From: Lingula anatina
Lineage: Eukaryota > Animalia > Brachiopoda
Direction of reading: 5' to 3'
Length of the DNA stretch: 64,000 nt
NCBI GenBank assembly: GCA_051362555.1
Contig: CM120640.1
Coordinates: forward strand, 3,410,001-3,474,000
Shown here: piece after piece, positions 1 to 45,182 of the stretch
Numbering within the stretch: the stretch's first letter is position 1
How the letters are laid out: every line of letters begins with the position of its first letter
Notes under the pieces: model-generated
The model's database searches: none
What the model was told of the DNA's origin: nothing
The model's input: only the letters and a program-made list of their open reading frames with translations
Translations under genes and position numbers: made by a program

Positions 1-2289
1 AGTAGCACGGAGGACATAAAAGACCTCTTTTACGTGTCCACGCTATTTCGTGTTGTGAAAACCGTGTTCCTCATTCTAACATGGGTCTGTCTGGTAAGTG
101 TTGCAAACTTCTACAGTGTCGTCTATTTGCATCTGTAAATTTTTATCTTTTTTTTTCACTTCATTTGCACAATGGACACCATTCCAGGATCATTCTGGGA
201 AAGGAAGAATGCGAAGCAATTCCATCTTGTTCTGCCTTCTCAGCATAAAAAATTTCAAAGAATCGACAGAGAGGAACAAGACCACGTAATTGTCATTGAC
301 GCCAGAGCCGCCTGTGTCTAATTGATTTCAAATAGAATTGACCTCCTACCTCTGAAAAAAAATGCAAATCCTTTATTTTCAATCAATAAATACCGTAAAA
401 TATATGTGTTCTAGGGTTTGTCACTGGAAATCTCGGGGCCGACCATGCAGGACCTCATTCTGCGCACTGGCACCAACTATGAGGAAGTGTCTCGTGCCAT
501 ATCTGGACGCAGCGCGGGTTTCTTCACCGGGGCGGTGATCGGGGGGTTCCTGGTGGACAAACTGCGTCTGTACTGCGACCTGATGATCGGAGTTAGTTTG
601 GTGATTATGTCAGCCGGGTCAGTGGCCGTACCATGGTCACCTTGGACAGGACTTATATGGTTCATATTTTTCCTGCAAGGAACGTGTGAAGGGGTCATCA
701 ACATAGGTTAGTTAATTATCCATTATCCATGTTTCTCCACCCATTATGATAGCAAGGGCAAAGGGGTCGTTCTACTGATAAATATCACAAGTCTTATTGA
801 GGATAGATTTTGAAGGTAGTTTCGTTAGTCGGTAAAAATTCTTCAAAAGTGTAATATGAGTACTACACAATATGGTCTGTCTTCTTTAAAAAGATGTTGT
901 TGATCTACAATCATTGCTAAATTGTTTGCCTTAATTTGGATATTATTATGCGTTGTGTTAGAGTGCCTTGTTGTATATTCTTTGGCACTTAGTCTTAGTT
1001 CTCTAACCTTGGTTTTGGTAGTTCCCAAGGGCCATGGAATGGTAAAGGTTTTTTCTTTCTCTTAAAAGAGATTGCAAATTTTATCAAGGTTGGGAGTATA
1101 ATTTAGTCATGTCATTTGCACATTGTCATTTTGTTTCTTTGCAGCGGGACAAAAACTGATTTTATCCATCTGGGGAAAGAACGCTGCCTCCCCACTCCAC
1201 GTGTTACACACGGGCTTTGGCGTCGGCTCGATGATCGTTCCCCTGATCGCCAACCCATTCCTTGCCAACATACAGACAACAACCCTCACAAATACTTCAA
1301 TGAACATAACGTCTGTGTTTACCACCGCCCTGCCCCCTACACTTTCAAGTTTGGAATACACGACAGACGCCACAATCTCGACTACGATAACTCGCGTCCT
1401 AAGGGAATCCCGGATTGAATATGCCTACTTAATCGTTGCCATCCTCGTCACTACTCTCTCCCTTGCCTTCTTCGTGTACCAGTGGAAATATTCCGAGTAT
1501 GTCCTCCATCCTGCTGACCACGAAACTGAAAGTAAGAAGAGAGTTCATGGAGTCAAAGAATTTATCCGCATCATCAATCCGGCCACCTGCGCCGATGGTA
1601 ACTTTTGTTTTGGGCTCCAAATGTTCATACTGTTATCTCTTCATTTTTTCAATGCGGTAGGCGGGGAAAGACTGTACGGTAAGTTCATCCGATCCTATGC
1701 CATAGATCAGCTCAACTTCTCAGGGGACGAAGCAAGCTACTTAAATGTAGTTTTCTGGATCAGCTTCTCTGTTGGCCGCTTCTCCGGGTTCATCGTAGCC
1801 CACTGGGTCCCTGTCCGCTTTTTGATCATTATAGAGGCAGCCGGCGTCTTAATTTCGGCAATCCTGTTGAATATATGGGGGCATACCGAGCCCCTCATGC
1901 TTTGGATCTTCACCCAACCAATGGCGTTCTTCATCGCACCTCTGTTTCCCTCAGGTATTGCATTGGGTGACCATTACGTAGAAATGAGCGGCCTGGCCAT
2001 TACAGTGCTACTTCTTGGTGGATCTATCGGTGGAATTGCTTACCTCTTCCTCATCGGCTATTTGTATGAGAACTTTGGGCCGTCGATGTTCATGTACAAC
2101 GTGTTGGGGTACGCTATAGCCGTGGTGGTGATGGTTGCCCTGCTCAGTGTTGTTGGCCACTTGCACGGAGATCGGTACCAGCGTGAGGATGAAACAGAAC
2201 GAAGTATCGGGGATATGAAGAAAATGGACAAACTAGAATACGCGGCAGATAACCCTCAAATGTTGTCTTACACCAATACTGCACTGTAG
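1..2289 (+). CDS. MFSD4/sodium-dependent glucose transporter 1 (NaGLT1)-like MFS transporter, copy 1 (5' partial)
   Basis: Exons <1-93, 415-706, 1145-2289 with GT-AG introns in compatible phases (0,1). Multi-TM protein with GLSLEISGPTMQDL, GAVIGGFLVDK, LHVLHTGFGVGSMIVPLIA, ESRIEYAY and FWISFSVGR motifs typical of MFSD4/FucP-like MFS. Structure is identical to copy 2. Confidence 0.88.
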
Positions 2290-8013: not shown

Positions 8014-8917
8014 ATGGACGAAAAGCCGAATCCGGGCGTTGAAAGCAGTTCTGAGGACATAAAAGACCTCTTTTACGTGTCCACGCTATTTCGTGTTGTG
8101 AAAACTGTGTTACTCATTCTAACATGGGTGGGTCTGGTGAGTGTTGTTAACTTTTATAGTGTTGGCTATTTTACGAATCTTTTCTTGATCACATTATTTG
8201 CACAACACAATCTGTTCTAGGATTATAGTGGGGTAAAGAGAGTATGCAGCAAGGTGCGCCCTTGAACAAACTCCAGTTTGTTTTGCTTTCATGTCAAAAA
8301 AGGACTTTCAGGAAACCAGGAAAGAAATGAACAAGACCACGTATTTGACATCTACCCTACATCCGCCTCTGCCATTATACTTTTGAGTAAAAGTAAACAT
8401 TGGTTTATTTTCTATCAATAAATACAGTAACCTATATGTTCTAGGGTTTATCACTAGAAATCTCGGGGCCGACCATGCAGGACCTCATTCTGCGCACTGG
8501 CACCAACTATGAGGAAGTGTCTCGTGCCATATCTGGACGCAGCGCGGGTTTCTTCACCGGGGCGGTGATTGGGGGCTTCCTGGTGGACAAACTGCGCCTG
8601 TACTGCGACCTGATGATCGGCGTTAGTTTGGTGATTATGTCGGCCGGGTCAGTGGCCGTACCATGGTCACCTTGGACAGGACTTATATGGTTCATATTTT
8701 TCCTGCAAGGAACTTGTGAAGGGGTCATCAACATAGGTAAGTTAATTATTCATTATCCATGTATCTCCACCCAAAATGATAGCAAGGGCAAAGGGTTCTA
8801 CTGATAAATATCACAAGTCGCATTGAGGATAGATTTTGCACCTCTTGTTTGAGGAGTTTTGGTAGGTGGTCAAAATTCTCCATAAGTTAGTGTAACATGA
8901 GTACTACGCAATGTGGC

Positions 8918-8964
<47 letters not shown>

Positions 8965-10681
8965 GTTGAGATACCCCCAGTAATATCGATACTTGAACTG
9001 TATAATGGTTTCGAATTCGAATTTGCCTTAATTTTGATATTATTTTGCGTTTTGACAGAGTGTTTTGTTGTAGGCCTATATTCTTCGGAACAAAGTCAAA
9101 TTGTAGATGCTAAATAGATCGTTCTTAGTTTTTTCTCTATATTTGGTTCTGGTGATAGTTCCCAAGAGCCAATGAAAGGGTTAAGGTGTTTTCTTTCTCT
9201 TAAGAGATTTTAACATTTGATCAAGGTTATGAATACAATTTAGGCAAATTATTGTAATGAACACCCAAACATAAAAGCCCGATAATTACTTGCCTTTGGG
9301 ATTGATTAAGTAACATGTTAGACTTTAGAAGATTACCTTGGTTGTGATCTTTCTTCAATTTTCAAGGACTAAGATATATTGTTCAAGAAAAGTTGTTGTC
9401 ACTAGGCTTATCATTTTTCAATATTTTGTTTCCTTTACATGTATTTCCTTATTTGGTGGTAGGGGGGCTTCCTTACAGCCTCTCTCTGAATCTCTATATG
9501 TAACTAATTTGACATCGTCATTTTGTTCCTTTGCAGCGGGACAAAAACTGATCTTATCCATTTGGGGAAAGAACGCTGCCTCCCCACTCCACGTGTTGCA
9601 CACGGGCTTTGGCGTCGGCTCGATGATCGTTCCCCTGATCGCCAACCCCTTCCTTGCCAACATACAGACAACAACCCTCACAAATACTTCAATGAACGAA
9701 ACCTTTATGTCTACCACCGCCCTACCCCCTACAATATCAAGTTTGGAATACACGACAGACGCATCAAACTCGACTACCGTAACTCGCGTCCTAAGAGAAT
9801 CCCGGATTGAATATGCATACTTAATCGTTGCCATCCTCGTCAGTGTTCTGTCCTTTGCCTTCTTCGTGTACCAGTGGAAATATTCCGAGTATGTCCTCCA
9901 TCCGGCTGACCACGAAACGGAAAGTAAGAAGAGGGTTCATGGAGTCAAAGAATTTATCCGTATCATCAATCCGGCCACCTGCGCCAATGGTAACTTTTGT
10001 TTTGGGCTCCAAATGTTCATATTGTTATCTTTTTATTTTTTCCAAGCAACAGGTGGAGAAAGACTGTACGGTAAGTTCATCCGATCCTATGCCATAGACC
10101 AGTTCAACTTTTCCGTGGACGAGGCAAGTTACTTAAATGTAGTCTTCTGGATCAGCTACTCTCTTGGTCGTTTCTCCGGATTCATCGTAGCCCACTGGGT
10201 CCCTATCCGCTTTTTGATCATTATAGAGGCAGCCGGCGTCTTAATTTCGGCAATCCTGTTGAATATATGGGGGCACACCGAGCCCCTCATGCTTTGGATC
10301 TTCACCCAACCAATGGCGTTCTTCATCGCACCTCTGTTTCCATCAGGTATTGCATTGGGTGACCATTACGTAGAAATGAGCGGCCTGGCCATTACAGTGC
10401 TACTTCTTGGTGGATCCGTCGGTGGAATTGCTTACCTCTTTCTCATAGGCTATTTGTATGAGAACTTTGGGCCGTCGATGTTCATGTACAACGTATTGGG
10501 GTTCGGTATAGCCGTGGTGGTGATGGTTGCCCTGCTCAGCGTTGTGGGCCACTTGCACGGAGATCGGTACCAGCGTGAGGATGAAACAGAACAAAGTATT
10601 GGGGATATGAAGGAAGTGGACAAACTAGAATACGCGGCAGATAACCCTCAAATGTTGTCTTACACCAATACTGCACTGTAG
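8014..10681 (+). CDS. MFSD4/NaGLT1-like MFS transporter, copy 2 (complete)
   Basis: Exons 8014-8136, 8445-8736, 9537-10681. ATG MDEKPNPG, GT-AG introns in phases 0 and 1, stop TAG. Exon 2 encodes the same peptide as copy 1. Confidence 0.9.
8921..8957. repeat. (TA)n microsatellite
   Basis: Perfect TA run in intron 2 of MFS copy 2; absent from the corresponding intron of copy 1. Confidence 0.95.
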
Positions 10682-18700: not shown

Positions 18701-19738
18701 GGATAGACAGTGGTAACATACAATGCTACTCTAGCTGTGAATAGATGAATTTGTTTCACATTGTGTTTTGGCTTTTCAAATGCGTAATGGAAATATTGGA
18801 GCGATTTTTAATAATGGTACGCGACGTTATACAGATGTTACTTAAGTGCACCGTCTGTAGGCCTAGCTTGTATGGCCATATCAAAGATTTTACTGTGCTG
18901 GCACAACCAGACGGCATAAGTAGCCAGAATTGCGTGACAATTAATAAAAAGAGCCTTCAGTGCTCTTTGAAAATCTGCCTCAATAAAAGTCCTCCCCGTC
19001 AGGTACTGTAAAAACCAATAGAAGGCGGTTTCTCTTGGGGATAAGATGGTGAAGTAATTTTCCACAAGAATACTGTTCACGTTAGACTCCCGATAGTCAC
19101 GCTATATGGCAAGCTCGGAGGGGAAGGCTTAGGGGAACAACAAACGGCATTTATCAACATGAATTATTAAAACCATCCGCGTTTGGAAATGTTCTTAAAT
19201 TCTCATTTTTATGTATACATACCCTGCAAAGTTATTATCTTTCCGAAATAATACTTTTAATAGACAATAAAACCACCTGAAATGTACAGGAAGTAAAGGC
19301 GGTCTAGGTGACGGGCATTTAGAAATAAATCGATAAATAAAGGGGGCTCGATACGTTGGAGTATTTTCCTTATCCTTTTCAATAATGCAGTAATAAACAT
19401 TAGGCCACACTTTTTTATTTTTATGGATGACATCCTCTGGGTACCCCAAAATCGGTGCGAGAGGGCGAAAAAAAAAAAAAAAAAAACGGTCCAAAAAATA
19501 AAAATACTGCTTAAGTAAAGGAATGCTGTCAGTACACAGCTGGAAACACAAATTTTACCACAGAAACACGTATCAAACTAACAATATGTCTTTATCCATG
19601 CTCTCAAAATATTAAAGCGTTGTGAATACTTCGTAGAAATGTAAAAAAAAAGTCATGAATAGATATACTTCTTATTACAAAATCTATTAAGGTTATTTCA
19701 TGCATTTTGTTGGTATAGCAATCAATAAAACAAATATC

Positions 19739-19967
19739 TATAGGAACCGGGTTGTACGTTACAACTGGCCTATGAATAAGTAAAGTGCCTACCTTTTCTG
19801 GATAGGCATCCAAGTCCTCGTTTTCTTGTTAATTCTCTCTTCACCACAACTTAGCACCATGCGCTTGAGCGCGCCATGCTCAACTCCAACGCTCTCAACT
19901 TCTAACTAACTACTACGCATGCGCCGTGACACGCTTCCGGGTCATGCAATGACCCCTCGGCACTACA
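19739..19967 (-). repeat. 3' LTR
   Basis: 229 bp; element strand reads TGTAGTGCC...GGTTCCTATA; matches 27335-27563. Confidence 0.96.
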
Positions 19968-19980
19968 CTCTCCCCCGTTT
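19968..19980 (-). other. Polypurine tract
   Basis: AAACGGGGGAGAG immediately precedes the TG of the 3' LTR on the minus strand. Confidence 0.85.
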
Positions 19981-20186
19981 TACCTTGAAGGACCGTGCCT
20001 TCTCGGTCGTGTCAGTGCCGAGTCCACTAAAGTCCACTTAAAGTCCACTTTCCTCCGTGGGAAAGGGAAAATTCCCGCCTGTCCCCGTGGGACTCAGGGG
20101 ATAAGTGCTTGCAGTGATGATGGGCGTCCCATCAAAACCACTAATCCTGGTCAGGTCGCACCCAGCCTGACCACACCCTCGCCCTT

Positions 20187-20480
20187 CTAACCATCTGGGC
20201 CCCTTTTCTCCAGGTATAAACGCCGTGCGTTATCCCTGGTCTGGCGCAACACTTCTCGCCATCGCTCTCCCCGGATCTCCGCCACTAACTTGGCCACGTG
20301 ACCAAGCAGAGCTGGAGTGGAGCACTTGTTCCGTTGGATGTTGAAATACGGAGCATCCGTCTCCAAGAGTAGTCTTTTCAGGGGCAAGGTTCGTAACATG
20401 TCATGCGCCTTGGCATTGACAGGCCCCTCATGTTCTGCGAAGCGCCCGTGACGCCTAAGTATACATCCAATTCTTCAGCC
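20187..20480 (-). pseudogene. TatD-family DNase C-terminal fragment carried inside the retrotransposon
   Basis: ORF 20399-20187 LRTLPLKRLLLETDAPYF...PALLGHVAKLVAEIRG...VLRQTRDNARRLY matches the TatD C-terminal signature (LLLETDxPY...NAxxLF/Y). One frameshift upstream gives DVYLGVTG (cf. TatD YxSFxG/YIGITG strand). The N-terminal HxH and GExGLD motifs are absent. Confidence 0.85.
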
Positions 20481-20481
20481 C

Positions 20482-23400
20482 TTAAGCTCGGCGTATGCAG
20501 TCTTGGCATTTGTACTTGTTAATGCTTAAGGCATCCGTGGCCGTCACATTAACACATGACCCGTGATACCACTCCCCGCAGTAATCACATTGCAGCATAA
20601 ATCTACCCTGCCAGGGTTGACGGCAACTGCAATATACCCGGTCATCGCCCCTCGCCGTGGAGTCGGGCACTGGATTCTTCCTCCAATGTTGTATCCACTG
20701 GGGCACCTCCTTGTCTCGACAAGGCTTCAACCTATCGTGGTTGGTCACAAAGACTGCATTCCGCACCTTAACGCGGAACAGGTTTGAACTGAGCCGTGCT
20801 ACAATTAAACCTGGACCCCTCCATGGTGGGCACAATTTCTTGCACTTCCCCTTGGCTGCCGCGGTATCCAGCACATACACCGTATCTCCCACAGCATACG
20901 GTCGCTCGAGTATCCTTAGATCATAGTCCCTCTTCATTCTTTTAGAGGCGACTCTCAGTTTACCCCGAGCCGTCTCGTGGGCTTCCATCAGATCAGCTGC
21001 CAACCGTGCGGCATAGCTATCTGAATCTTCAAAATTGATGCTCCTCCGTGGGAACATTAAACCTGCAGGTGCGTTCACCTCCCTCCCCAACATTAACCTG
21101 TTGGGAGTGTACCCCGTCATCCGGTTTACAGATGCCCTAAGTGCCCCGGCAATCTGTTGTAGACGCAAGTCCCAGCCGTTCTGGGCCTTCTCCGTGAAGC
21201 AGCGTACCGCATCCATGAGAGTGCGGTTATAGCGCTCTACCTGGCCATTGCTGGCCGGCCGGTACGGCGTAGTACGGGCCTTGTGAATCTCGAGCACAGA
21301 ACACACTTCAGTGAACAGCTTAGATTCAAAATTCCTCCCCTGGTCCGTGAAAATCTCCAGAGGGACTCCAAACCTGGAGAAAAATTGATCTATTGCGGCC
21401 CGTGCCGTCTCCTCCGCTGACTGTGATGGTAAGGGGATACATTCGACCCATTTCGTAAATTGGTCGACCATCATGAGTATGTACTCATTCCCCCTGGCAG
21501 TCTTCGGCAACGGTCCCAAGAAATCTAAGTGCACCCTCTCCATAGGCGCACCTGCCTGGAATTGTGTCAGAGGCACTTTTCCCTGCCTTGCAGATTTCTT
21601 ATTCTGGTTACACCGTGTGCACCCAGAAACGAAGTTTTCTGTCGCTCTTCCCATCCCGTACCAATAGAATCGCTCCTTGAGCCGATCCTTGGTTCTTTTC
21701 GCTCCCTGATGGCCTGATGATGGCAGGCAATGATGTAGTCGAATGGCTTCCTGTTGCCATGCCATAGGTAGCACTAACTTTTTATCCTCAGTCTCAGGAT
21801 CACACCTGTATAGCAGACCCTCTATGATGATAAACAAATCCCTATCCAGCCAATAGGATTTTAAGGCCTGGCTGCCTAGGAATAAGGTGGACTGATCAGG
21901 TAGCTTACCACTTTCCAAGCTCACCCTGATCACACTCAGGTCTGCATCCGCCTCCTGTGCTGCACGGACCTCCTCCACCGAATAACCCCAACTGGTGAGT
22001 CGTGAAGACCCGTGGTCCTTCACCTTGACCTCACCCTCTGCTTTTCCCTCTTGAAGTGTGGATTCCTTATCACACTCCACCGTGGGAGGTTCATCCTCAG
22101 GAGTTATCGGCGCGTCGCCTGTATCTTTAGGCCCGTGGCCACGTGCACGTCTCCGAGTAGTAACTGGAGCTACTCGTGGTGTTTTCCCTTGACCCCAGGG
22201 AATCTGATCTAACACCATCTGTAAGACCTGGAACTCTAGTGTATCCGTGATACACTCTTCCTCTCTGCATACCTCACCGAACACCGTGTGTTCAGAGTAC
22301 GCATTCACTGGATCCACCGTTACTGAGCGAACCGTCTTGCCATCGTTGTTTTGCTGACCTTCTGAAATTTCAACGCTGTGGATATCCTCCGTATCCCGGT
22401 ACGCACCCTGTGCTAGCGGAATAACATCATCCACTTCCTCCTCGAAACCCACCCAATTCTCGTGGGCTCGCCTGCAATACCCGCATCCACCACATGGTAG
22501 AGCATCTAGCCGCCCCCTGGTGCCTGCTTTGCACTGCCCCGTGTGAGTCGCTCTAGACAGCGCGTCCGCATTCCCATGTTTGCGCCCAGCGCGATGAGAC
22601 AACACCATGTCGTACTGTGAGAGCTCTTCCAGCCATCTCGCCAGCTGACCCTGCGGCTCCCGAAATTTCATCAGCCATCTTAAACTCGAATGGTCAGTCC
22701 TAATAGTAAATGGTTTCCCCAATAAATAGTACCTGAACTGTCGGGTGAATCGTACCACCGCCAAGAGTTCCTTGCGTGTCGTACAATACTTCCTCTGTTC
22801 CCTGGTTAATCCATAGCTACCGTAAGCTATCACTTTCTCCTGGCCATCTTGTACTTGAATAAGCTCTGCTCCTATAGCAAAGTCACTTGCGTCTGTATCC
22901 AAAATGAACTCTCCGTCCACCGTGGGAACAGAAAGAACCGGGGGAGATGTTAATGCCCCCTTTAATGCCGTAAAAGCCCGTGCTTGTTCCTCACCCCACT
23001 CGTAACTCTTTCCAGTTACAGCGTACAGGGGTGCCGCTATCTCACTGAAGTTTTTAATAAAGGCTCGATGGTAATTAGCCAAGCCCATGAATTTCTCCAC
23101 ATCTTTGGCACATGTTGGTGTAGGCCAGTCCGTGACTGCCTTAATGTCATGATCAGACATGGAGAGCGTCTCTCCTGTCACTATCCGTCCGAGAAATTCA
23201 ATCTCCTTCTTAAAGAAGATGCATTTCTTTGGCTTAAGCTTCAGCTCGTAGCTGCGGAACCTCTCAAGGGCGTCCCTTAGGTTCTGTAAATGCACATCAA
23301 AAGTAGTACCGAGTACCACTATGTCATCTAGAAATGCCAGCACAGTTTTCCAGGACATTCCACGGAAAACTAAGTTCATTATCCGAGCATAGGTCGCGGG

Positions 23401-25077
23401 CGCCCCGCACAGACCAAATGCCATACGCACATGCTCATAGAGACCATATTTCGTAATGAAAGCTGTCTTTTTCCGATCCTCTTCACGTATGGGCACCTGC
23501 CAATACGCAGAGTTGGCGTCCAACTTAGAAAAATACACATTACCCGACAAGGTATCCAAACAGTCATCGACTAAGGGTAATGGGAACACGTCCTTAGTGG
23601 TCACGGCATTCAACGCACGGTAATCGATACACCACCTCACAGAGCCATCTTTCTTCCGTATTAACACTGGCGCCGACGCCCAGTCGGAAGTTGACTCCTG
23701 AATCACTCCTGCCTTCAACATCTTCTGTAAATGGGCTTCCTCCTCGCCCACAAAGCACCGTGGCGTTCGCCGCATTCTCTGCTTTATCGGAAGAGCAGTA
23801 CCGGTGTCTATCTTATGCTCAACCAATGTGAAGTTTCCTAAATCAAATTCGTCTCTAGCAAACACATCCTGATACTCCGTGAGTAATCTCGCTAGCTGAA
23901 CTTTCTGCTGATCGTCTAATTCTGCACTGGATTCCTCATACACCTGCTTTAAATGAGAAGGCACGCGTCGCGCCTCATCATTGACCTCGTCATCGGTCCG
24001 TGCCGTGACTGATTGCACTGCTGGTGGTATGCAGTGAATGACCTCCGCCCCAGGTGACCTGCCACCCTCCCCTTGGTTACTAGGGAAACATAACGGATCC
24101 CCCAGGGGCTCCCCAGACGTTATAATACCCGCATAGGTAAAAGCCCGCCCCACTTCAGTACCCTTACGCAATAGTCTGTGCCTCTCACTGGGATTTATGA
24201 GGACCATGATGGGTTCAGACCCCCCATTACGAATAACCCTGGGAGCAAGGAACTTACCAACACCCCCCACCTTTGGCTCTATAACATAACTAGGAAGATC
24301 TACATCTAACTTACAGGCCACCCTGGCAGCGGAGTAAGGGGGTATCACCTGACGCCGTGCGACAGTGACCCTGGCCATCTGAGGTGTTCCCTTATCTGAA
24401 TTAGCGTCTAATGTCAGATACATGCCGTCAAACTGCATCACTCCTCTGCCGACATCCACTACTGCCTGTCCTAAGTCCTTCATAATGTCCATTCCCAGCA
24501 GCATATCTTGTTCAATGGGGGCTACGTATAGCCTCACAGCATACCACTTATGTCCAATCTTTAACTTAACAGGGCCTGCCGTGAACCCCTGCATCACCAT
24601 TTCCCGACCAGCGGCTAAAAGCTGTACTGAATTCAACCTCTTAGGTTGTTTCTTAAGACTGTTGTAAATGCGGTCTGAAAGTATCGTAACTTGAGCCGCT
24701 GTGTCCACTACAGCATTCACAGCAATGTTTCCCACTTTCATCTGAAGTGAATAATCCGCCACTGTTCCGATTTGTCGCACCACTACCATGGGAGCAGGAA
24801 CCGTGCCCTGTATTCCCCCTGTGGTAGCCTCATCTGCCCTAGTTGGTGATTCAACGTGACCCGTATCACGGTTGGGCTTGTCTTGGACTAGTGCTGCCCC
24901 CTGTCGAGTAAATTCTGATTGCACACCCTGTACCTCCGTGGGTACAGTGCACTTAATATCCGAAACTGCTGACTCCTCTGGTACCCTGAGTTTCTTAATG
25001 GGCTTATTTATAACATCTGGGCCTATGAATCGCTGGGTCGAGGGTTGGCCTCCGGCCTCGACCCGGTGGAGTTTCCC
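20482..25077 (-). CDS. pol: Pol polyprotein: aspartic protease, reverse transcriptase, RNase H, integrase, C-terminal PHD finger
   Basis: Uninterrupted ORF (open from 25119): VVDTAAQVT (PR), WCIDYRALN/MAFGLCGAPAT/FLDDIVV (RT), LDTDASDFAIG...TDHSSL...NADALSR (RH), H-x6-H...CTRC, HLDFLGPLP, TDQGRNF, NGQVERYNRTL (IN), WRGP (GPY/F), C4HC3 PHD. Probably expressed as Gag-Pol by -1 frameshift. Confidence 0.96.
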   Translation of the reverse strand, partial: GKLHRVEAGGQPSTQRFIGPDVINKPIKKLRVPEESAVSDIKCTVPTEVQGVQSEFTRQGAALVQDKPNRDTGHVESPTRADEATTGGIQGTVPAPMVVVRQIGTVADYSLQMKVGNIAVNAVVDTAAQVTILSDRIYNSLKKQPKRLNSVQLLAAGREMVMQGFTAGPVKLKIGHKWYAVRLYVAPIEQDMLLGMDIMKDLGQAVVDVGRGVMQFDGMYLTLDANSDKGTPQMARVTVARRQVIPPYSAARVACKLDVDLPSYVIEPKVGGVGKFLAPRVIRNGGSEPIMVLINPSERHRLLRKGTEVGRAFTYAGIITSGEPLGDPLCFPSNQGEGGRSPGAEVIHCIPPAVQSVTARTDDEVNDEARRVPSHLKQVYEESSAELDDQQKVQLARLLTEYQDVFARDEFDLGNFTLVEHKIDTGTALPIKQRMRRTPRCFVGEEEAHLQKMLKAGVIQESTSDWASAPVLIRKKDGSVRWCIDYRALNAVTTKDVFPLPLVDDCLDTLSGNVYFSKLDANSAYWQVPIREEDRKKTAFITKYGLYEHVRMAFGLCGAPATYARIMNLVFRGMSWKTVLAFLDDIVVLGTTFDVHLQNLRDALERFRSYELKLKPKKCIFFKKEIEFLGRIVTGETLSMSDHDIKAVTDWPTPTCAKDVEKFMGLANYHRAFIKNFSEIAAPLYAVTGKSYEWGEEQARAFTALKGALTSPPVLSVPTVDGEFILDTDASDFAIGAELIQVQDGQEKVIAYGSYGLTREQRKYCTTRKELLAVVRFTRQFRYYLLGKPFTIRTDHSSLRWLMKFREPQGQLARWLEELSQYDMVLSHRAGRKHGNADALSRATHTGQCKAGTRGRLDALPCGGCGYCRRAHENWVGFEEEVDDVIPLAQGAYRDTEDIHSVEISEGQQNNDGKTVRSVTVDPVNAYSEHTVFGEVCREEECITDTLEFQVLQMVLDQIPWGQGKTPRVAPVTTRRRARGHGPKDTGDAPITPEDEPPTVECDKESTLQEGKAEGEVKVKDHGSSRLTSWGYSVEEVRAAQEADADLSVIRVSLESGKLPDQSTLFLGSQALKSYWLDRDLFIIIEGLLYRCDPETEDKKLVLPMAWQQEAIRLHHCLPSSGHQGAKRTKDRLKERFYWYGMGRATENFVSGCTRCNQNKKSARQGKVPLTQFQAGAPMERVHLDFLGPLPKTARGNEYILMMVDQFTKWVECIPLPSQSAEETARAAIDQFFSRFGVPLEIFTDQGRNFESKLFTEVCSVLEIHKARTTPYRPASNGQVERYNRTLMDAVRCFTEKAQNGWDLRLQQIAGALRASVNRMTGYTPNRLMLGREVNAPAGLMFPRRSINFEDSDSYAARLAADLMEAHETARGKLRVASKRMKRDYDLRILERPYAVGDTVYVLDTAAAKGKCKKLCPPWRGPGLIVARLSSNLFRVKVRNAVFVTNHDRLKPCRDKEVPQWIQHWRKNPVPDSTARGDDRVYCSCRQPWQGRFMLQCDYCGEWYHGSCVNVTATDALSINKYKCQDCIRRA

Positions 25078-27068
25078 ACCTGCGGGCACTCCCTTGCAAT
25101 GTGCCCTTGCCGATTGCACTTATAACACAGCACCGAGCTTCCAGTGCTGCCCCGTCCCCAGCCCCGCTGGTTTCCGGGTGCGGCTCCGTGGCCGTAACCG
25201 GTAGATGACCTCCTACTCAGCTCCTGGCGGACATCTTTCAACGCCTTCTCCATCTCCTTGATGGTGTCCCTCATCTGTTCCAGCTCTGGAATGTTACCCT
25301 CTGCTGCAGGCGTCACCTGGTTGGCTCGCTTGGCTCCCGGGCGCAATTTCTTTCCCGCATTCTCCATAGTCACTCGCATTTCCCTATGCATCTTAGCCAG
25401 CTGCATCGCTTCCCTTAAGGTGGCTGGCTGTCGCATATAAATTGATTGACCTGCCTCTGAATCAATCATGCCCGCGCAGAACCGACTTACAGCCTCCGAC
25501 TCCACGAATGTCCTAGGTAACTGAGCATACGCTTCAGAAGTCAGACGTAGCACCCTGACTCCCCATTCATCCACCGTTTCCGTCTCGTCTTGAGTAGCGT
25601 TATGTAGCTGCGACCGGACCGTAGCCGGTGTGTCCGTTTCTCCGTAACAGGTCTCCAATTCCTCCATGAGACCTTCATATGAGAGCTTACCTAGCCTGCG
25701 TGTGACGTTCACACAACAGTCTAGGGCTTTACCCTTCAGGCAGAGGCATAGTGCATCCAGGGACATGTCGCGATCCCAATCCTCCCTCTCTGCCTGTCGT
25801 AAGAAAAGCAACTTAAAAGCAGCCCAACTTCCGTGTCCGTTAAAAGTTAAGCTCTTAGGAGGATTGACCTTCCTCCTCTCTATTGAGTCTTGTTCTGCCC
25901 CTAGCTCCGTGAGCCGTGCAGTCCTCCTCGAGGCCGCGCCCCGTTTCAATATAGGAGAGCCCTGGAATACAGGGTGTTCGTCCTGGCTACCTCCCTCCAC
26001 TGGGGTGCTATGATACACTAAGTGCCCTGAATTCGATCCATTTCCCACCACTGGAGATCCGTGATCCCCAGGGTGTACGTCTGGAGAGCTGTGACTTCCA
26101 GGGTGTTGTACTGAGAATCCGTGATTCCCAGGGTACATGGCTGGAGAGCTGTGATTTCCAGGGTGCGGTACTGAGAATCCGTGATTCCCAGGGTACATGG
26201 CTGGAGAGCTGTGATTTCCAGGGTGCAGTGCTGAGAATCCGTGATTCCCAGGGTGCATGACCGGGGGACTGACACCAGGTGCCATTGGAGGGCTATGATT
26301 CCCAGGGTAACCCGAATAGCTGCCACCACCCCCCGGGCCAATAGCATACCCCTCCCCCCGGACATCCCCGGACATAGGAGTCTCCCTTACAACGCCCCCC
26401 CCTGGACTAGGTGTAAACAATTCAGGGGTATAAACAGCCCTATCCTGACTCCCGGGACCTAATGCTACCCCACCCCCCATGGGGCTAGGTGTATACGGAA
26501 CATAAGGACCCCCCTGCTGAACCCCACTATTTACATTCTTAACTACGTTTTTACCTGGGCTCCGTTTGACAAGTTGAGGCGAATTCGCTCCCTCCAGTCC
26601 ACTATCCTCGAATAACCTCTTCGGCACCGTGGCCTCCGAGTTACGATGTGCACTCATTTGACCCTCACAGCCTCCTAGCTGCCGCGTGCCACCTCCGTGA
26701 GGCGCACTTTCGCTATTGAAAGCGTTGCTCTCCTCCTGAGCAGAAAATCCAAAGAACAGTCCTAAAAGAAACCGGAAAAATCTCCATAGCCAGTTTCCAG
26801 ATCCTCCTGTCTCCTGCACCTTCCTTTCCCTGAGTGAAACAGCCGTGCTGCCCACACCCAAGCGCTGATTCGGCTCAAAGTCCACCATATCCAGCGTACG
26901 AGGAGCCAGTCTGCAGCACAAAGCACTTTCCACTTGCTGCACATTTAAATTTCCAAATTGTTCCCTCAATTCGGCTATTTTGAACACTTGGTCTTCCGTG
27001 AGACCTGGAGTCCGCATCAACTCATTCACATTTGCATAATTTATGAAAATCCTGGCGTGCGTCGCCAT
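25023..27068 (-). CDS. gag: Gag (681 aa from ATG 27068): HhH domain, hydrophobic segment, His/Pro/Gly repeats, capsid, CCHC knuckle
   Basis: ATG in AAAATGG context; PPKSLTFNGHGSWAAFKLLF...LKGKAL capsid-like region; QDETETVDEWGVRV major-homology-like segment; CYKCNRQGHIARECP zinc knuckle. Confidence 0.93.
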   Translation of the reverse strand: MATHARIFINYANVNELMRTPGLTEDQVFKIAELREQFGNLNVQQVESALCCRLAPRTLDMVDFEPNQRLGVGSTAVSLRERKVQETGGSGNWLWRFFRFLLGLFFGFSAQEESNAFNSESAPHGGGTRQLGGCEGQMSAHRNSEATVPKRLFEDSGLEGANSPQLVKRSPGKNVVKNVNSGVQQGGPYVPYTPSPMGGGVALGPGSQDRAVYTPELFTPSPGGGVVRETPMSGDVRGEGYAIGPGGGGSYSGYPGNHSPPMAPGVSPPVMHPGNHGFSALHPGNHSSPAMYPGNHGFSVPHPGNHSSPAMYPGNHGFSVQHPGSHSSPDVHPGDHGSPVVGNGSNSGHLVYHSTPVEGGSQDEHPVFQGSPILKRGAASRRTARLTELGAEQDSIERRKVNPPKSLTFNGHGSWAAFKLLFLRQAEREDWDRDMSLDALCLCLKGKALDCCVNVTRRLGKLSYEGLMEELETCYGETDTPATVRSQLHNATQDETETVDEWGVRVLRLTSEAYAQLPRTFVESEAVSRFCAGMIDSEAGQSIYMRQPATLREAMQLAKMHREMRVTMENAGKKLRPGAKRANQVTPAAEGNIPELEQMRDTIKEMEKALKDVRQELSRRSSTGYGHGAAPGNQRGWGRGSTGSSVLCYKCNRQGHIARECPQVGNSTGSRPEANPRPSDS
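25035..25077 (-). promoter_or_regulatory. -1 programmed ribosomal frameshift signal (gag to pol)
   Basis: Slippery heptamer G GGA AAC (25077-25071) in the gag frame, 6-nt spacer TCCACC, then a perfect 9-bp stem GGGTCGAGG/CCTCGACCC with a 12-nt loop. The -1 frame reads (G)KLHRVE, which is the pol ORF. Confidence 0.88.
26051..26260 (-). repeat. Coding minisatellite in gag: 7 x 30 bp with alternating (60-bp) higher-order structure
   Basis: Encodes HPGNHGFSAL/HPGNHSSPAM/YPGNHGFSVP/HPGNHSSPAM/YPGNHGFSVQ/HPGSHSSPDV/HPGDHGSPVV. Confidence 0.93.
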
Positions 27069-27323
27069 TTTGTTTTTTCCTTGGCGCACGTGCCGCCGAA
27101 AATTCCAGAAAACTCCTTAAAACTTGTAAGAAACTACTGTAAAAACACTCTAAAAACACTCACCAGACCGTGCTGGGGTTTCCTCATATACAATATATAC
27201 AACAATAAACATTAAAATGGTAGGGTAGCGTGCCTGAGTGCGGAGTTCAGCTCCGTGGCTGAAAAACTCCTCAGCAGAAAAATTCGTAACTTTTCTGCCC
27301 AAATGTGGCACAAATCCGGCCCG

Positions 27324-27333
27324 GCTGCCACCA
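27324..27333 (-). other. Primer-binding site (probably tRNA-Leu)
   Basis: TGGTGGCAGC one base inside the 5' LTR, complementary to the ...GCTGCCA-CCA 3' end I recall for metazoan tRNA-Leu(AAG/TAG). Confidence 0.75.
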
Positions 27334-27334
27334 A

Positions 27335-27563
27335 TATAGGAACCGGGTTGTACGTTACAACTGGCCTATGAATAAGTAAAGTGCCTACCTTTTCTGGATA
27401 GGCATCCAAGTCCTCGTTTTCTTGTTAATTCTCTCTTCACCACAACTTAGCACCATGCGCTTGAGCGCGCCATGCTCAACTCCAACGCTCTCAACTTCTA
27501 ACTAACTACTACGCATGCGCCGTGACACGCTTCCGGGTCATGCAATGACCCCTCGGCACTACA
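27335..27563 (-). repeat. 5' LTR
   Basis: 229 bp, matches 19739-19967; followed by TSD TATC on the plus strand. Confidence 0.96.
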
Positions 27564-28824
27564 TATCAAACAAACAGTGTGTCTTTATTTGTATTCTCAG
27601 AATATTAAAATGATGCAAAGATATGCTTAATACTACCAAATCTATTAAAGGTCATTTCGGACGATGCCATTTTGTCTACTTCGACTCACACGGCCAAACT
27701 GTCAGGTGGCCTGTCCGACCTTCAGCCAACCAAATACCTCGACGCCCTTGTCGACCCTTTTTTCGCTACAGAAAACCTGGTAGCCTACGTGCTTTGTACA
27801 GAATGTCACTGAAACTTTTCGGGCGATAATCGCTGGCGTCCGCCAGCCTTTCGCACAATTGTAAAAAGGTGATATCTCCATGCCCAATATCAATGGCATA
27901 CCAATCCAAAACGACGGCACCCGTTCTCTTTATGACTTTAATTGTCGTGTATTTTGTAATCCTAGAGATGAATTTGACGGCAAAGCGGCCACATTTCCAC
28001 GTGGCGATAATACGCATGCGCAGAAAGCTCATTTCCTGGCAAATTCAATAACGACGTTTGCGACAACCGCCTACGTTGGGGGCTGGGGGGGGGGGATTTT
28101 TTTTTTTTTCGGAGAACGGGCGAAAATCGGTGCGCGCGCAGGATGTCATCCATAAAAATAAAAAAGTGTGGCCTTATTAGAGATAATGCTGCCATATTAA
28201 CAATACATCGGGGTTAATTTTGCTAATTCGAGATGATAAAGCAGTAGGTCTAGCATTGTGGGGGGTGGAAACTGTAATCTGTGACGGTCGGGATCACGTC
28301 ACACTGTCCACCGAAAATGCCAGACCACAATTAATAGAAAAAAAAAACTAGCCATAATCACCAACGTTACATGGTCACATCATATCCTAGGAAGTGTTAC
28401 AGTACAATTATGGAAACCCTACTTAACTAAGCCAAAAGAGTAACTAATGCTTTTTTGTGTGCGTGTGTGTGAAACTGGGGCATGGGAATATGCTTGAAAT
28501 ATTTACTTCTAATTTCAGTAAAGAGGCAAAACAATGACTGTATTTAAGGAAAAACGTAATTAGGGTTTTTTTTTGTTGTCAACCATGCCAATATCTTGCT
28601 TACAGTTGCCTGCAGTACCGACGGCATTGTTCCACCTGATAATAATCAGGCTTGTGAGGGGGTGGGTGGGAAGGGGTCAAACACACCACCCTTTTGGCCA
28701 ATTCATTTTGGGTTTTACGGTACCAAGGTGTCGTTTATTGAAACCTCTCACATGAATAACATAAATGATAGAATTCATGCCCAATAGAATGAGAAAAATC
28801 ACAAACAAAATAGAATAGAAGACT

Positions 28825-45182
<16,358 letters not shown>

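What the first reader, a model, noticed from the sequence alone, without database searches (positions are those of the whole stretch)
20187..20509. TatD DNase cargo as a third ORF of an LTR retrotransposon
Seen: LLLETDAPYF and NARRLY motifs inside the element at the position where env normally sits. Restoring one G at ACG GG[G] CGC (about 20445) gives a continuous MPRLHTPSLRAEELDVYLGVTGRFAEHEGPVNAKAHDMLRTLPLKRLLLETDAPYF..., whose ATG (20509) overlaps the pol end. Established: TatD proteins are 250-300 aa TIM-barrel 3'-5' exonucleases/AP endonucleases needing N-terminal metal ligands, which are missing here. Inference: the ancestor captured a full tatD and this lineage keeps only the C-terminal ~100 aa, as a relic, a non-catalytic mini-protein or a cis-acting RNA. 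The element still transposed recently.
Basis: partly seen in the sequence, partly recalled or inferred. Interest (0 to 1): 0.8.

Follow-up and report, generated by a model that had tools for sequence, protein, structure and literature searches.

The report
Retrotransposon clade carrying a TatD nuclease
This is the broken tail of an extra third gene in a young jumping gene, likely of a lamp shell, and many related jumping genes from other samples keep that gene whole, where it encodes a TatD-family protein predicted to be a working nuclease.

Summary
The 85-codon piece is TatD (Pfam 55 bits) inside a Gypsy element with identical 229-nt LTRs. It matches the last 85 of 808 residues of a Lingula anatina protein (84/85) that holds a whole TatD domain. 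The window copy has lost about 2.15 kb of that gene, including six of eight metal-site residues. The proposed N-terminal MPRL... peptide is not TatD. The frameshift appears in other runs' contigs. So the piece is a relic of a recent deletion, not an old mini-gene. The whole gene is the standard third ORF of a Gypsy clade: in 14 of 18 metagenome loci with room upstream, a pol gene precedes it. Six metal ligands are intact in 128 of 142 relatives, integrase and TatD trees agree, and a splice-acceptor motif precedes the start codon in 8 of 12. Named relatives come from brachiopod, bivalves and sea urchin. Nuclease activity and role are untested. Ten paper searches found no description; Repbase could not be checked. 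This scan reported the same clade earlier on sea-urchin DNA.

The parts
27335..27563 (-). 5' LTR, 229 nt, begins TG and ends TA
   Evidence: identical to 3' LTR
27324..27333 (-). Primer-binding-site-like TGG motif right after the 5' LTR; match to tRNA-Leu is recalled, not tested
   Evidence: read directly
27158..27163 (-). Splice-donor-like GTGAGT in the leader; candidate donor for an ORF3 message (0.2 expected by chance, so weak)
25023..27068 (-). gag: weak HhH at N-terminus, Retrotrans_gag, CCHC knuckle; 30-nt tandem repeat inside
20482..25119 (-). pol, intact: protease, RT, RNase H, integrase, C-terminal PHD finger (about 20631-20497)
20456..20481 (-). 26-nt remnant of the pol-ORF3 spacer; deletion junction at about 20456-20461 with a short shared stretch
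20187..20455 (-). TatD remnant: last about 90 codons of ORF3 (P0001 residues about 720-808), frame break at about 20445
19968..19976 (-). Polypurine tract
19739..19967 (-). 3' LTR
19735..19738 (+). Target-site duplication, left copy (right copy 27564-27567)
   Evidence: empty-site joint skipping 7829 nt

Best explanation
The piece is the last 90 or so codons of the third gene of a Ty3/Gypsy retrotransposon, likely left by a recent internal deletion and likely without function, while in intact relatives that gene encodes a 700-1100 residue protein ending in a complete TatD domain predicted to be an active nuclease. Shown: the window's anatomy, the loss of P0001 residues 1 to about 717, the gag-pol-ORF3 order in relatives, conserved metal ligands, congruent integrase and TatD trees. 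Inferred: (a) the deletion joined the pol-ORF3 spacer to the inside of TatD at a short shared stretch, as in template switching or end joining (about 75%); (b) ORF3 is normally made from a spliced, env-style message (about 65%); (c) the domain came from an animal TATDN2-type gene (about 70%); (d) it acts like TATDN2, degrading RNA in RNA:DNA hybrids or R-loops made during element transcription or reverse transcription in the germ line (about 40%; other substrates are open). The deleted form still transposed, so ORF3 is not needed in cis; full-length copies in the same species could supply it in trans.
For: P0001 (XP_013405738.1, Lingula anatina, 808 aa) has TatD at 531-800 and 84/85 identity to the piece. 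No other part of P0001 is in the window. Reads that leave the window at 20444-20447 continue as N-T-Y-F-G-V-T like P0001, so full copies exist in the same organism. Junction contigs make up 0.40, 0.46 and 0.50 of shared pol depth in X1, X6, X5 (rough). Metagenome scan: 45 of 46 loci hit the TatD profile; 16 have pol upstream on the same strand, 14 of 18 where TatD starts over 2 kb from the contig end. L019 and L023 hold three intact ORFs with Pfam support; L048, L050, L053, L055 likewise by tblastn and ORF scan, two assembling as 11-12 kb circles. HxH, E, H, H, D all intact in 128 of 142 rows. Integrase versus TatD distances: Spearman 0.78, p 0.0001, n 11, congruent trees. Differences among sister copies in the piece: 21 synonymous, 6 not, pN/pS 0.09. 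YAG 1-3 nt before the ORF3 ATG in 8 of 12 loci, background 0.185, P 3e-4. AlphaFold model pLDDT 92.7 matches TatD structures.
Against: The DNA around P0001 itself was not seen, so that it sits after this same pol is inferred from near-identity and read ends. Paired LTRs around an intact ORF3 were not shown in any relative. Four of the 18 long loci lack pol upstream (L036, L041, L044, L045; the last two also lack the middle domain). Many loci come from few samples and some are near-duplicates. In run X5 the deleted form has no frame break, so a short fused ORF exists in some copies. The 21:6 count uses only the 27 rows shown (25 further rows of that table were hidden) and reflects selection on sister families, not on this copy. 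Four of 12 loci lack the acceptor motif. The donor tree has only three bacterial rows and no TATDN1 or TATDN3; the element clade has 92/92 support, not starred. No activity data.
Confidence: 0.82

Rival explanations
1. The deleted subfamily makes a short non-catalytic TatD peptide from the ATG overlapping the pol end, and it is kept by selection.
For: A contig of run X5 (depth 148) has junction and no frame break, so about 107 codons would be open there; the deleted form is common.
Against: The window and contigs of X1 and X6 carry the break. The first 16 residues are pol overlap and spacer, not TatD. A quarter of a TIM barrel is unlikely to fold (inference). RNA depth over the piece was 0 to 0.4 in X11 and 0 in X14, on about 6% of each run.
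Confidence: 0.05
2. The remnant is kept as a cis-acting RNA element near the 3' end (packaging, export or strand transfer).
For: It is the part next to the PPT and 3' LTR; folding z -1.8.
Against: 8 of 200 shuffles fold as well; variation among sister copies follows codon positions, 19 of 27 at third positions. The 3' breakpoint may simply be where the shared stretch lay.
Confidence: 0.07
3. The piece came by recombination with a different TatD-bearing element or a host copy, not by deletion of this element's own ORF3.
For: Several TatD families coexist in Lingula (P0001, P0012, P0040, P0055); the P0001 locus was not seen.
Against: P0001's TatD groups with the same loci as the window's integrase; contig depth is continuous from pol through the piece to the LTR.
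Confidence: 0.06

Closest known systems
Juno and Vesta LTR retrotransposons of bdelloid rotifers with a DEDDy 3'-5' exonuclease ORF3 (PMC5408684)
   Same: Gypsy-type elements with an enzymatic, non-env third ORF for a predicted 3'-5' nuclease with intact catalytic residues; function undemonstrated.
   Different: Different fold (TatD TIM barrel, not DEDDy); multidomain 700-1100 aa protein; one old capture co-inherited with integrase across phyla, where DEDDy was gained at least twice within rotifers.
Animal TATDN2 (class II TatD; PMC10085689, PMC10711561, PMC12709183)
   Same: HxH motif, long N-terminal extension, shared CDP/CNP, ETDAPYF and FPN-type motifs with long animal TatD proteins and none of six bacterial-type rows (motifs picked after seeing the alignment). 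RefSeq names some family members putative TATDN2.
   Different: Multi-copy, single ORF inside a retrotransposon, faster evolving, with an N-terminal helical domain and a zinc-finger-like plus helical middle domain absent from all ten long host proteins.
Env-bearing Gypsy elements (errantiviruses) with spliced ORF3 message (recalled; splice lead from earlier finding e1-9984778)
   Same: ORF3 after pol, acceptor motif just before its ATG, donor-like site in the leader.
   Different: ORF3 is a nuclease-domain protein with no env-family Pfam hit.
Chromoviruses and CopiaMBD elements (PMC6673714); Ginger1 transposases with PHD (PMC2836005)
   Same: Chromatin-reader domain appended to integrase.
   Different: Here a PHD finger on a Gypsy integrase; it is absent from a basal branch (L034, L043) that already has the TatD ORF3.

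Membership tests
Ty3/Gypsy LTR retrotransposon | gag then pol with order protease, RT, RNase H, integrase | tested here: met
Ty3/Gypsy LTR retrotransposon | paired LTRs, target duplication, PBS and PPT | tested here: met
   LTR ends TA, not the usual CA; tRNA identity recalled
TatD DNase (PF01026), window piece | profile hit above cut-off | tested here: met
   55.4 bits, cut-off 27
TatD DNase (PF01026), window piece | whole barrel with two-metal site (HxH, E, H, H, D) | tested here: not met
   only E751 and D753 equivalents remain; six of eight site residues lost
TatD DNase (PF01026), intact ORF3 | whole barrel with two-metal site | tested here: met
   128 of 142 rows; fold match
TatD DNase (PF01026), intact ORF3 | nuclease activity | not testable with these tools
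   needs a bench assay
TATDN2 clade | class II HxH motif and extended N-terminus | tested here: met
TATDN2 clade | groups with TATDN2 against TATDN1, TATDN3 and bacterial paralogues | tested here: inconclusive
   sister to long animal TatDs when rooted on three bacterial rows; no TATDN1/3 rows; host rows are TATDN2-type by inference
env-type ORF3 | signal peptide, fusion and transmembrane segments | not tested
   no predictor run; only Pfam TatD (and in a few CCHC) hits
Named Gypsy clades (C-clade, Mag, CsRn1, MolGy) | RT/RNase H tree with reference elements | not testable with these tools
   no reference sequences available

The most novel reading that the evidence does not exclude
An old, very diverse Gypsy lineage of marine invertebrates captured the germ-line R-loop nuclease TATDN2 once, fused it to a fold with no solved match, and expresses it from an env-style spliced message to clear RNA:DNA hybrids or to counter host RNA-guided silencing; many annotated invertebrate 'TATDN2' genes are these elements, and deleted copies like this one ride on full copies in trans.
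Probability: 0.35. Interest if true: 0.85.

Novelty: new variant of a known kind. Interest (0 to 1): 0.66.

Why it matters
It adds a nuclease class to the short list of enzymes carried as retrotransposon third genes, conserved over very long times, which points to a selected role in the element's cycle or in conflict with the host. TATDN2 protects germ cells from R-loops (PMC12709183, abstract), which gives a direct, testable hypothesis. It also warns that multi-copy 'TATDN2' or 'TatD hydrolase' entries in invertebrate genomes and in some bacterial MAGs are likely transposon cargo. The window's own fragment is an ordinary relic.

Tried and rejected
No whole genome is held for the window, so copy number and dN/dS among genomic copies could not be computed. 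Viral contigs: 43 pattern matches, none confirmed. Search for pol-TatD fusions over 1415 aa returned only 9 long host-type proteins, none with RT or integrase domains (weak evidence). No RNA holder listed in the run index; laid RNA reads were too few to test splicing. LTR pairs, PPT and PBS in relatives: not found by repeat search or pattern, one PBS-like site in L016. Middle domain: confident model (pLDDT 93.8) but no Pfam hit in 22 members beyond one at E 0.02, no Foldseek hit at E 0.001, best VIA Z 3.1; this does not show a new fold. Atlas search gave only TatD clusters under 0.8. AU test rejected, p 0.03, one clade that includes P0031/P0033 (group named after seeing a tree). Rows dropped: L044, L045 left out of later trees as long-branch non-members; L016 left out of the co-phylogeny because its pol lies downstream; loci with under 225 profile positions or under 150 integrase residues left out; the 64-row tree is the quick version. 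Rejected: assembly error as the sole cause of the frame break; splice-made deletion (no AG before the junction on the TatD side); 5-nt target duplication (would remove the LTR's first T). Not in print: no relevant title in searches; TatD and PHD both occur 0 times in the main text of PMC6238403, PMC8556966 and PMC13524379. Their supplements, Repbase, Dfam and subscription papers were not seen and could hold an annotation.

Full report
Observation. The finding lies in a 7825-nt Ty3/Gypsy element on the minus strand (19739-27563). Its LTRs are 229 nt and identical, flanked by a 4-nt duplication; reads show the empty site as a 7829-nt skip. gag and pol are open; pol runs protease, RT, RNase H, integrase and ends in a PHD finger. 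Right after the pol stop, an 85-codon frame (20444-20187) hits Pfam TatD_DNase at 55.4 bits over the last 69 profile positions and solved TatDs. It ends 220 nt before the 3' LTR.

What the piece is. The best protein hit is P0001, XP_013405738.1 of Lingula anatina, 808 aa, with a whole TatD domain at 531-800. Its last 85 residues match the piece at 84, so the window is likely Lingula (inference). Only residues 723-808, plus a few before the frame break, are in the window; about 2.15 kb of coding sequence and six of eight metal-site residues are gone. In public runs, contigs leave the window at 20444-20447 and continue like P0001, and another leaves at 20477 with a spacer resembling the window's. 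The junction thus joins the pol-ORF3 spacer to the inside of TatD, at a 4-5 nt shared stretch (read from short loose ends; inference). Junction contigs occur in X1, X6 and X5 at 0.40, 0.46 and 0.50 of shared pol depth, so deleted and other forms coexist; depth gives no copy number. The frame break is crossed without a gap in X1 and X6 and is absent in X5. The deleted form therefore has a broken and an unbroken variant, which argues against selection on a short ORF but does not exclude it.

The family. P0001 belongs to a large family: 721 clusters at 50% identity score E 1e-10 or better, a count that includes ordinary TatDs at the weak end. Of 78 listed representatives with at least 150 residues before TatD, 71 have a shared middle domain. 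Named members come from Lingula, Pecten, Saccostrea, Mercenaria and Diadema. Two clusters have 182 and 64 members on megabase contigs, as expected of transposons.

Context. A metagenome scan gave 46 loci; 45 hit the TatD profile. Sixteen have a pol gene upstream on the same strand, 14 of them reaching the PHD end. Where TatD starts over 2 kb from the contig start, 14 of 18 do; the misses are L036, L041, L044 and L045, the last two lacking the middle domain. L019 and L023 carry intact gag, pol and a 1081 or 907 codon ORF3. A second scan gave 14 loci, 9 with the pol end upstream; L048, L050, L053 and L055 have three long ORFs in that order and L048 and L055 close as 11-12 kb circles. These loci come from few samples and some repeat each other. 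Paired LTRs around an intact ORF3 were not shown; the window supplies the LTR evidence.

Selection and history. All six ligands (HxH, E, H, H, D) are intact in 128 of 142 full-domain rows. AlphaFold gives pLDDT 92.7 and TatD structures as best matches. Among the 27 differences shown between the piece and sister copies, 21 are synonymous (pN/pS 0.09); this speaks for the intact families. Integrase and TatD distances correlate (Spearman 0.78, p 0.0001, n 11, with P0001 standing in for the window) and the trees agree except for L003: one old capture, inherited with pol. Rooted on three bacterial rows, element TatDs form a group (92/92) sister to long animal TatDs, with which they share three motifs absent from six bacterial-type rows. 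A TATDN2-type donor is likely, not shown. P0031 and P0033 fall with the host proteins and may mark a second capture.

Mechanism. An earlier scan note (e1-9984778) suggested a splice acceptor; I tested it on other loci. A YAG ends 1-3 nt before the ORF3 ATG in 8 of 12, mostly after a pyrimidine run, against a background of 0.185 (P 3e-4). The window has a donor-like site in the leader (weak alone). ORF3 is thus likely made from an env-style spliced message; no junction reads were seen. The window's 26-nt spacer lacks a pyrimidine run and the ORF3 start, so the remnant likely has no normal route to expression. Human TATDN2 degrades the RNA strand of R-loops (PMC10711561, abstract) and medaka tatdn2 protects germ cells (PMC12709183, abstract); TATDN1 and 3 are 3' exonucleases and AP endonucleases on DNA (PMC10085689, passages). 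My best guess is clearing of RNA:DNA hybrids during the element's germ-line cycle (about 40%); trimming of cDNA ends or action against host RNAs are open. The deleted form inserted recently, so ORF3 is dispensable in cis.

Known and new. Closest: DEDDy ORF3s of bdelloid Juno and Vesta (PMC5408684; first fifth of the text and passages). PHD on transposases and reader domains on integrases are known (PMC2836005, PMC6673714; passages). Ten searches (listings and abstract starts) showed no paper on TatD in LTR elements, and three surveys do not contain the word in their main text. Supplements, Repbase and Dfam were not seen. This scan noted the clade earlier in sea urchin and a J-domain/TatD variant in flatworm; those notes are leads, not support.

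Verdict. The window's fragment is most likely a relic of a recent deletion (0.82). Its value is as a marker of a conserved, apparently undescribed TatD-carrying Gypsy clade: new variant of a known kind, interest 0.66.

Noticed in passing
L047-L060: All 14 hits in the prokaryote genome collection lie in two Sedimenticola MAG records and several are whole Gypsy elements, likely animal DNA binned into the MAG; one ORF3 product is named 'TatD family hydrolase [Sedimenticola sp.]'.
   Followed up: partly
P0031, P0033, P0034: Proteins with the element-type middle domain but a TatD domain sister to host long TatDs (98/96); possibly a second capture or domain replacement. DNA context unknown.
   Followed up: partly
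L034 3621-5282, L043 8107-10002: Basal branch: TatD ORF3 present, no PHD on integrase, middle domain with a longer Cys/His insert.
   Followed up: partly
L005 444-908 and relatives: Middle domain of ORF3 (C-x-C...H-x-H finger plus helices, LxHW motif) folds confidently but has no Pfam or PDB match.
   Followed up: partly
window 25023-27068; L019, L023: Gag begins with a helix-hairpin-helix domain, clear in relatives and weak in the window.
   Followed up: partly
P0012, P0029: Some ORF3 proteins carry CCHC zinc knuckles in the linker.
   Followed up: no
window 19500-19738 and 27564-27800: The element is inserted in a very high-copy repeat (contig depth hundreds of times that of the element) that is transcribed.
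   Followed up: no
window 1-2289 and 8044-10681: Tandem duplication, about 8 kb spacing, of an MFS-transporter-like ORF (weak Pfam hits).
   Followed up: no
window 31317-31679 minus; 31600-37290: Exon of a TAF1B/Rrn7-like gene; beside it a LINE-like RT fragment (zf-RVT, weak) within a 5.35-kb-spaced direct repeat.
   Followed up: no
window 42479-44300: 161-nt tandem satellite.
   Followed up: no
PMC6962438, one passage: A 'putative TATDN2' is annotated inside the giant squid Hox cluster among transposon-like genes; could be such an element.
   Followed up: no
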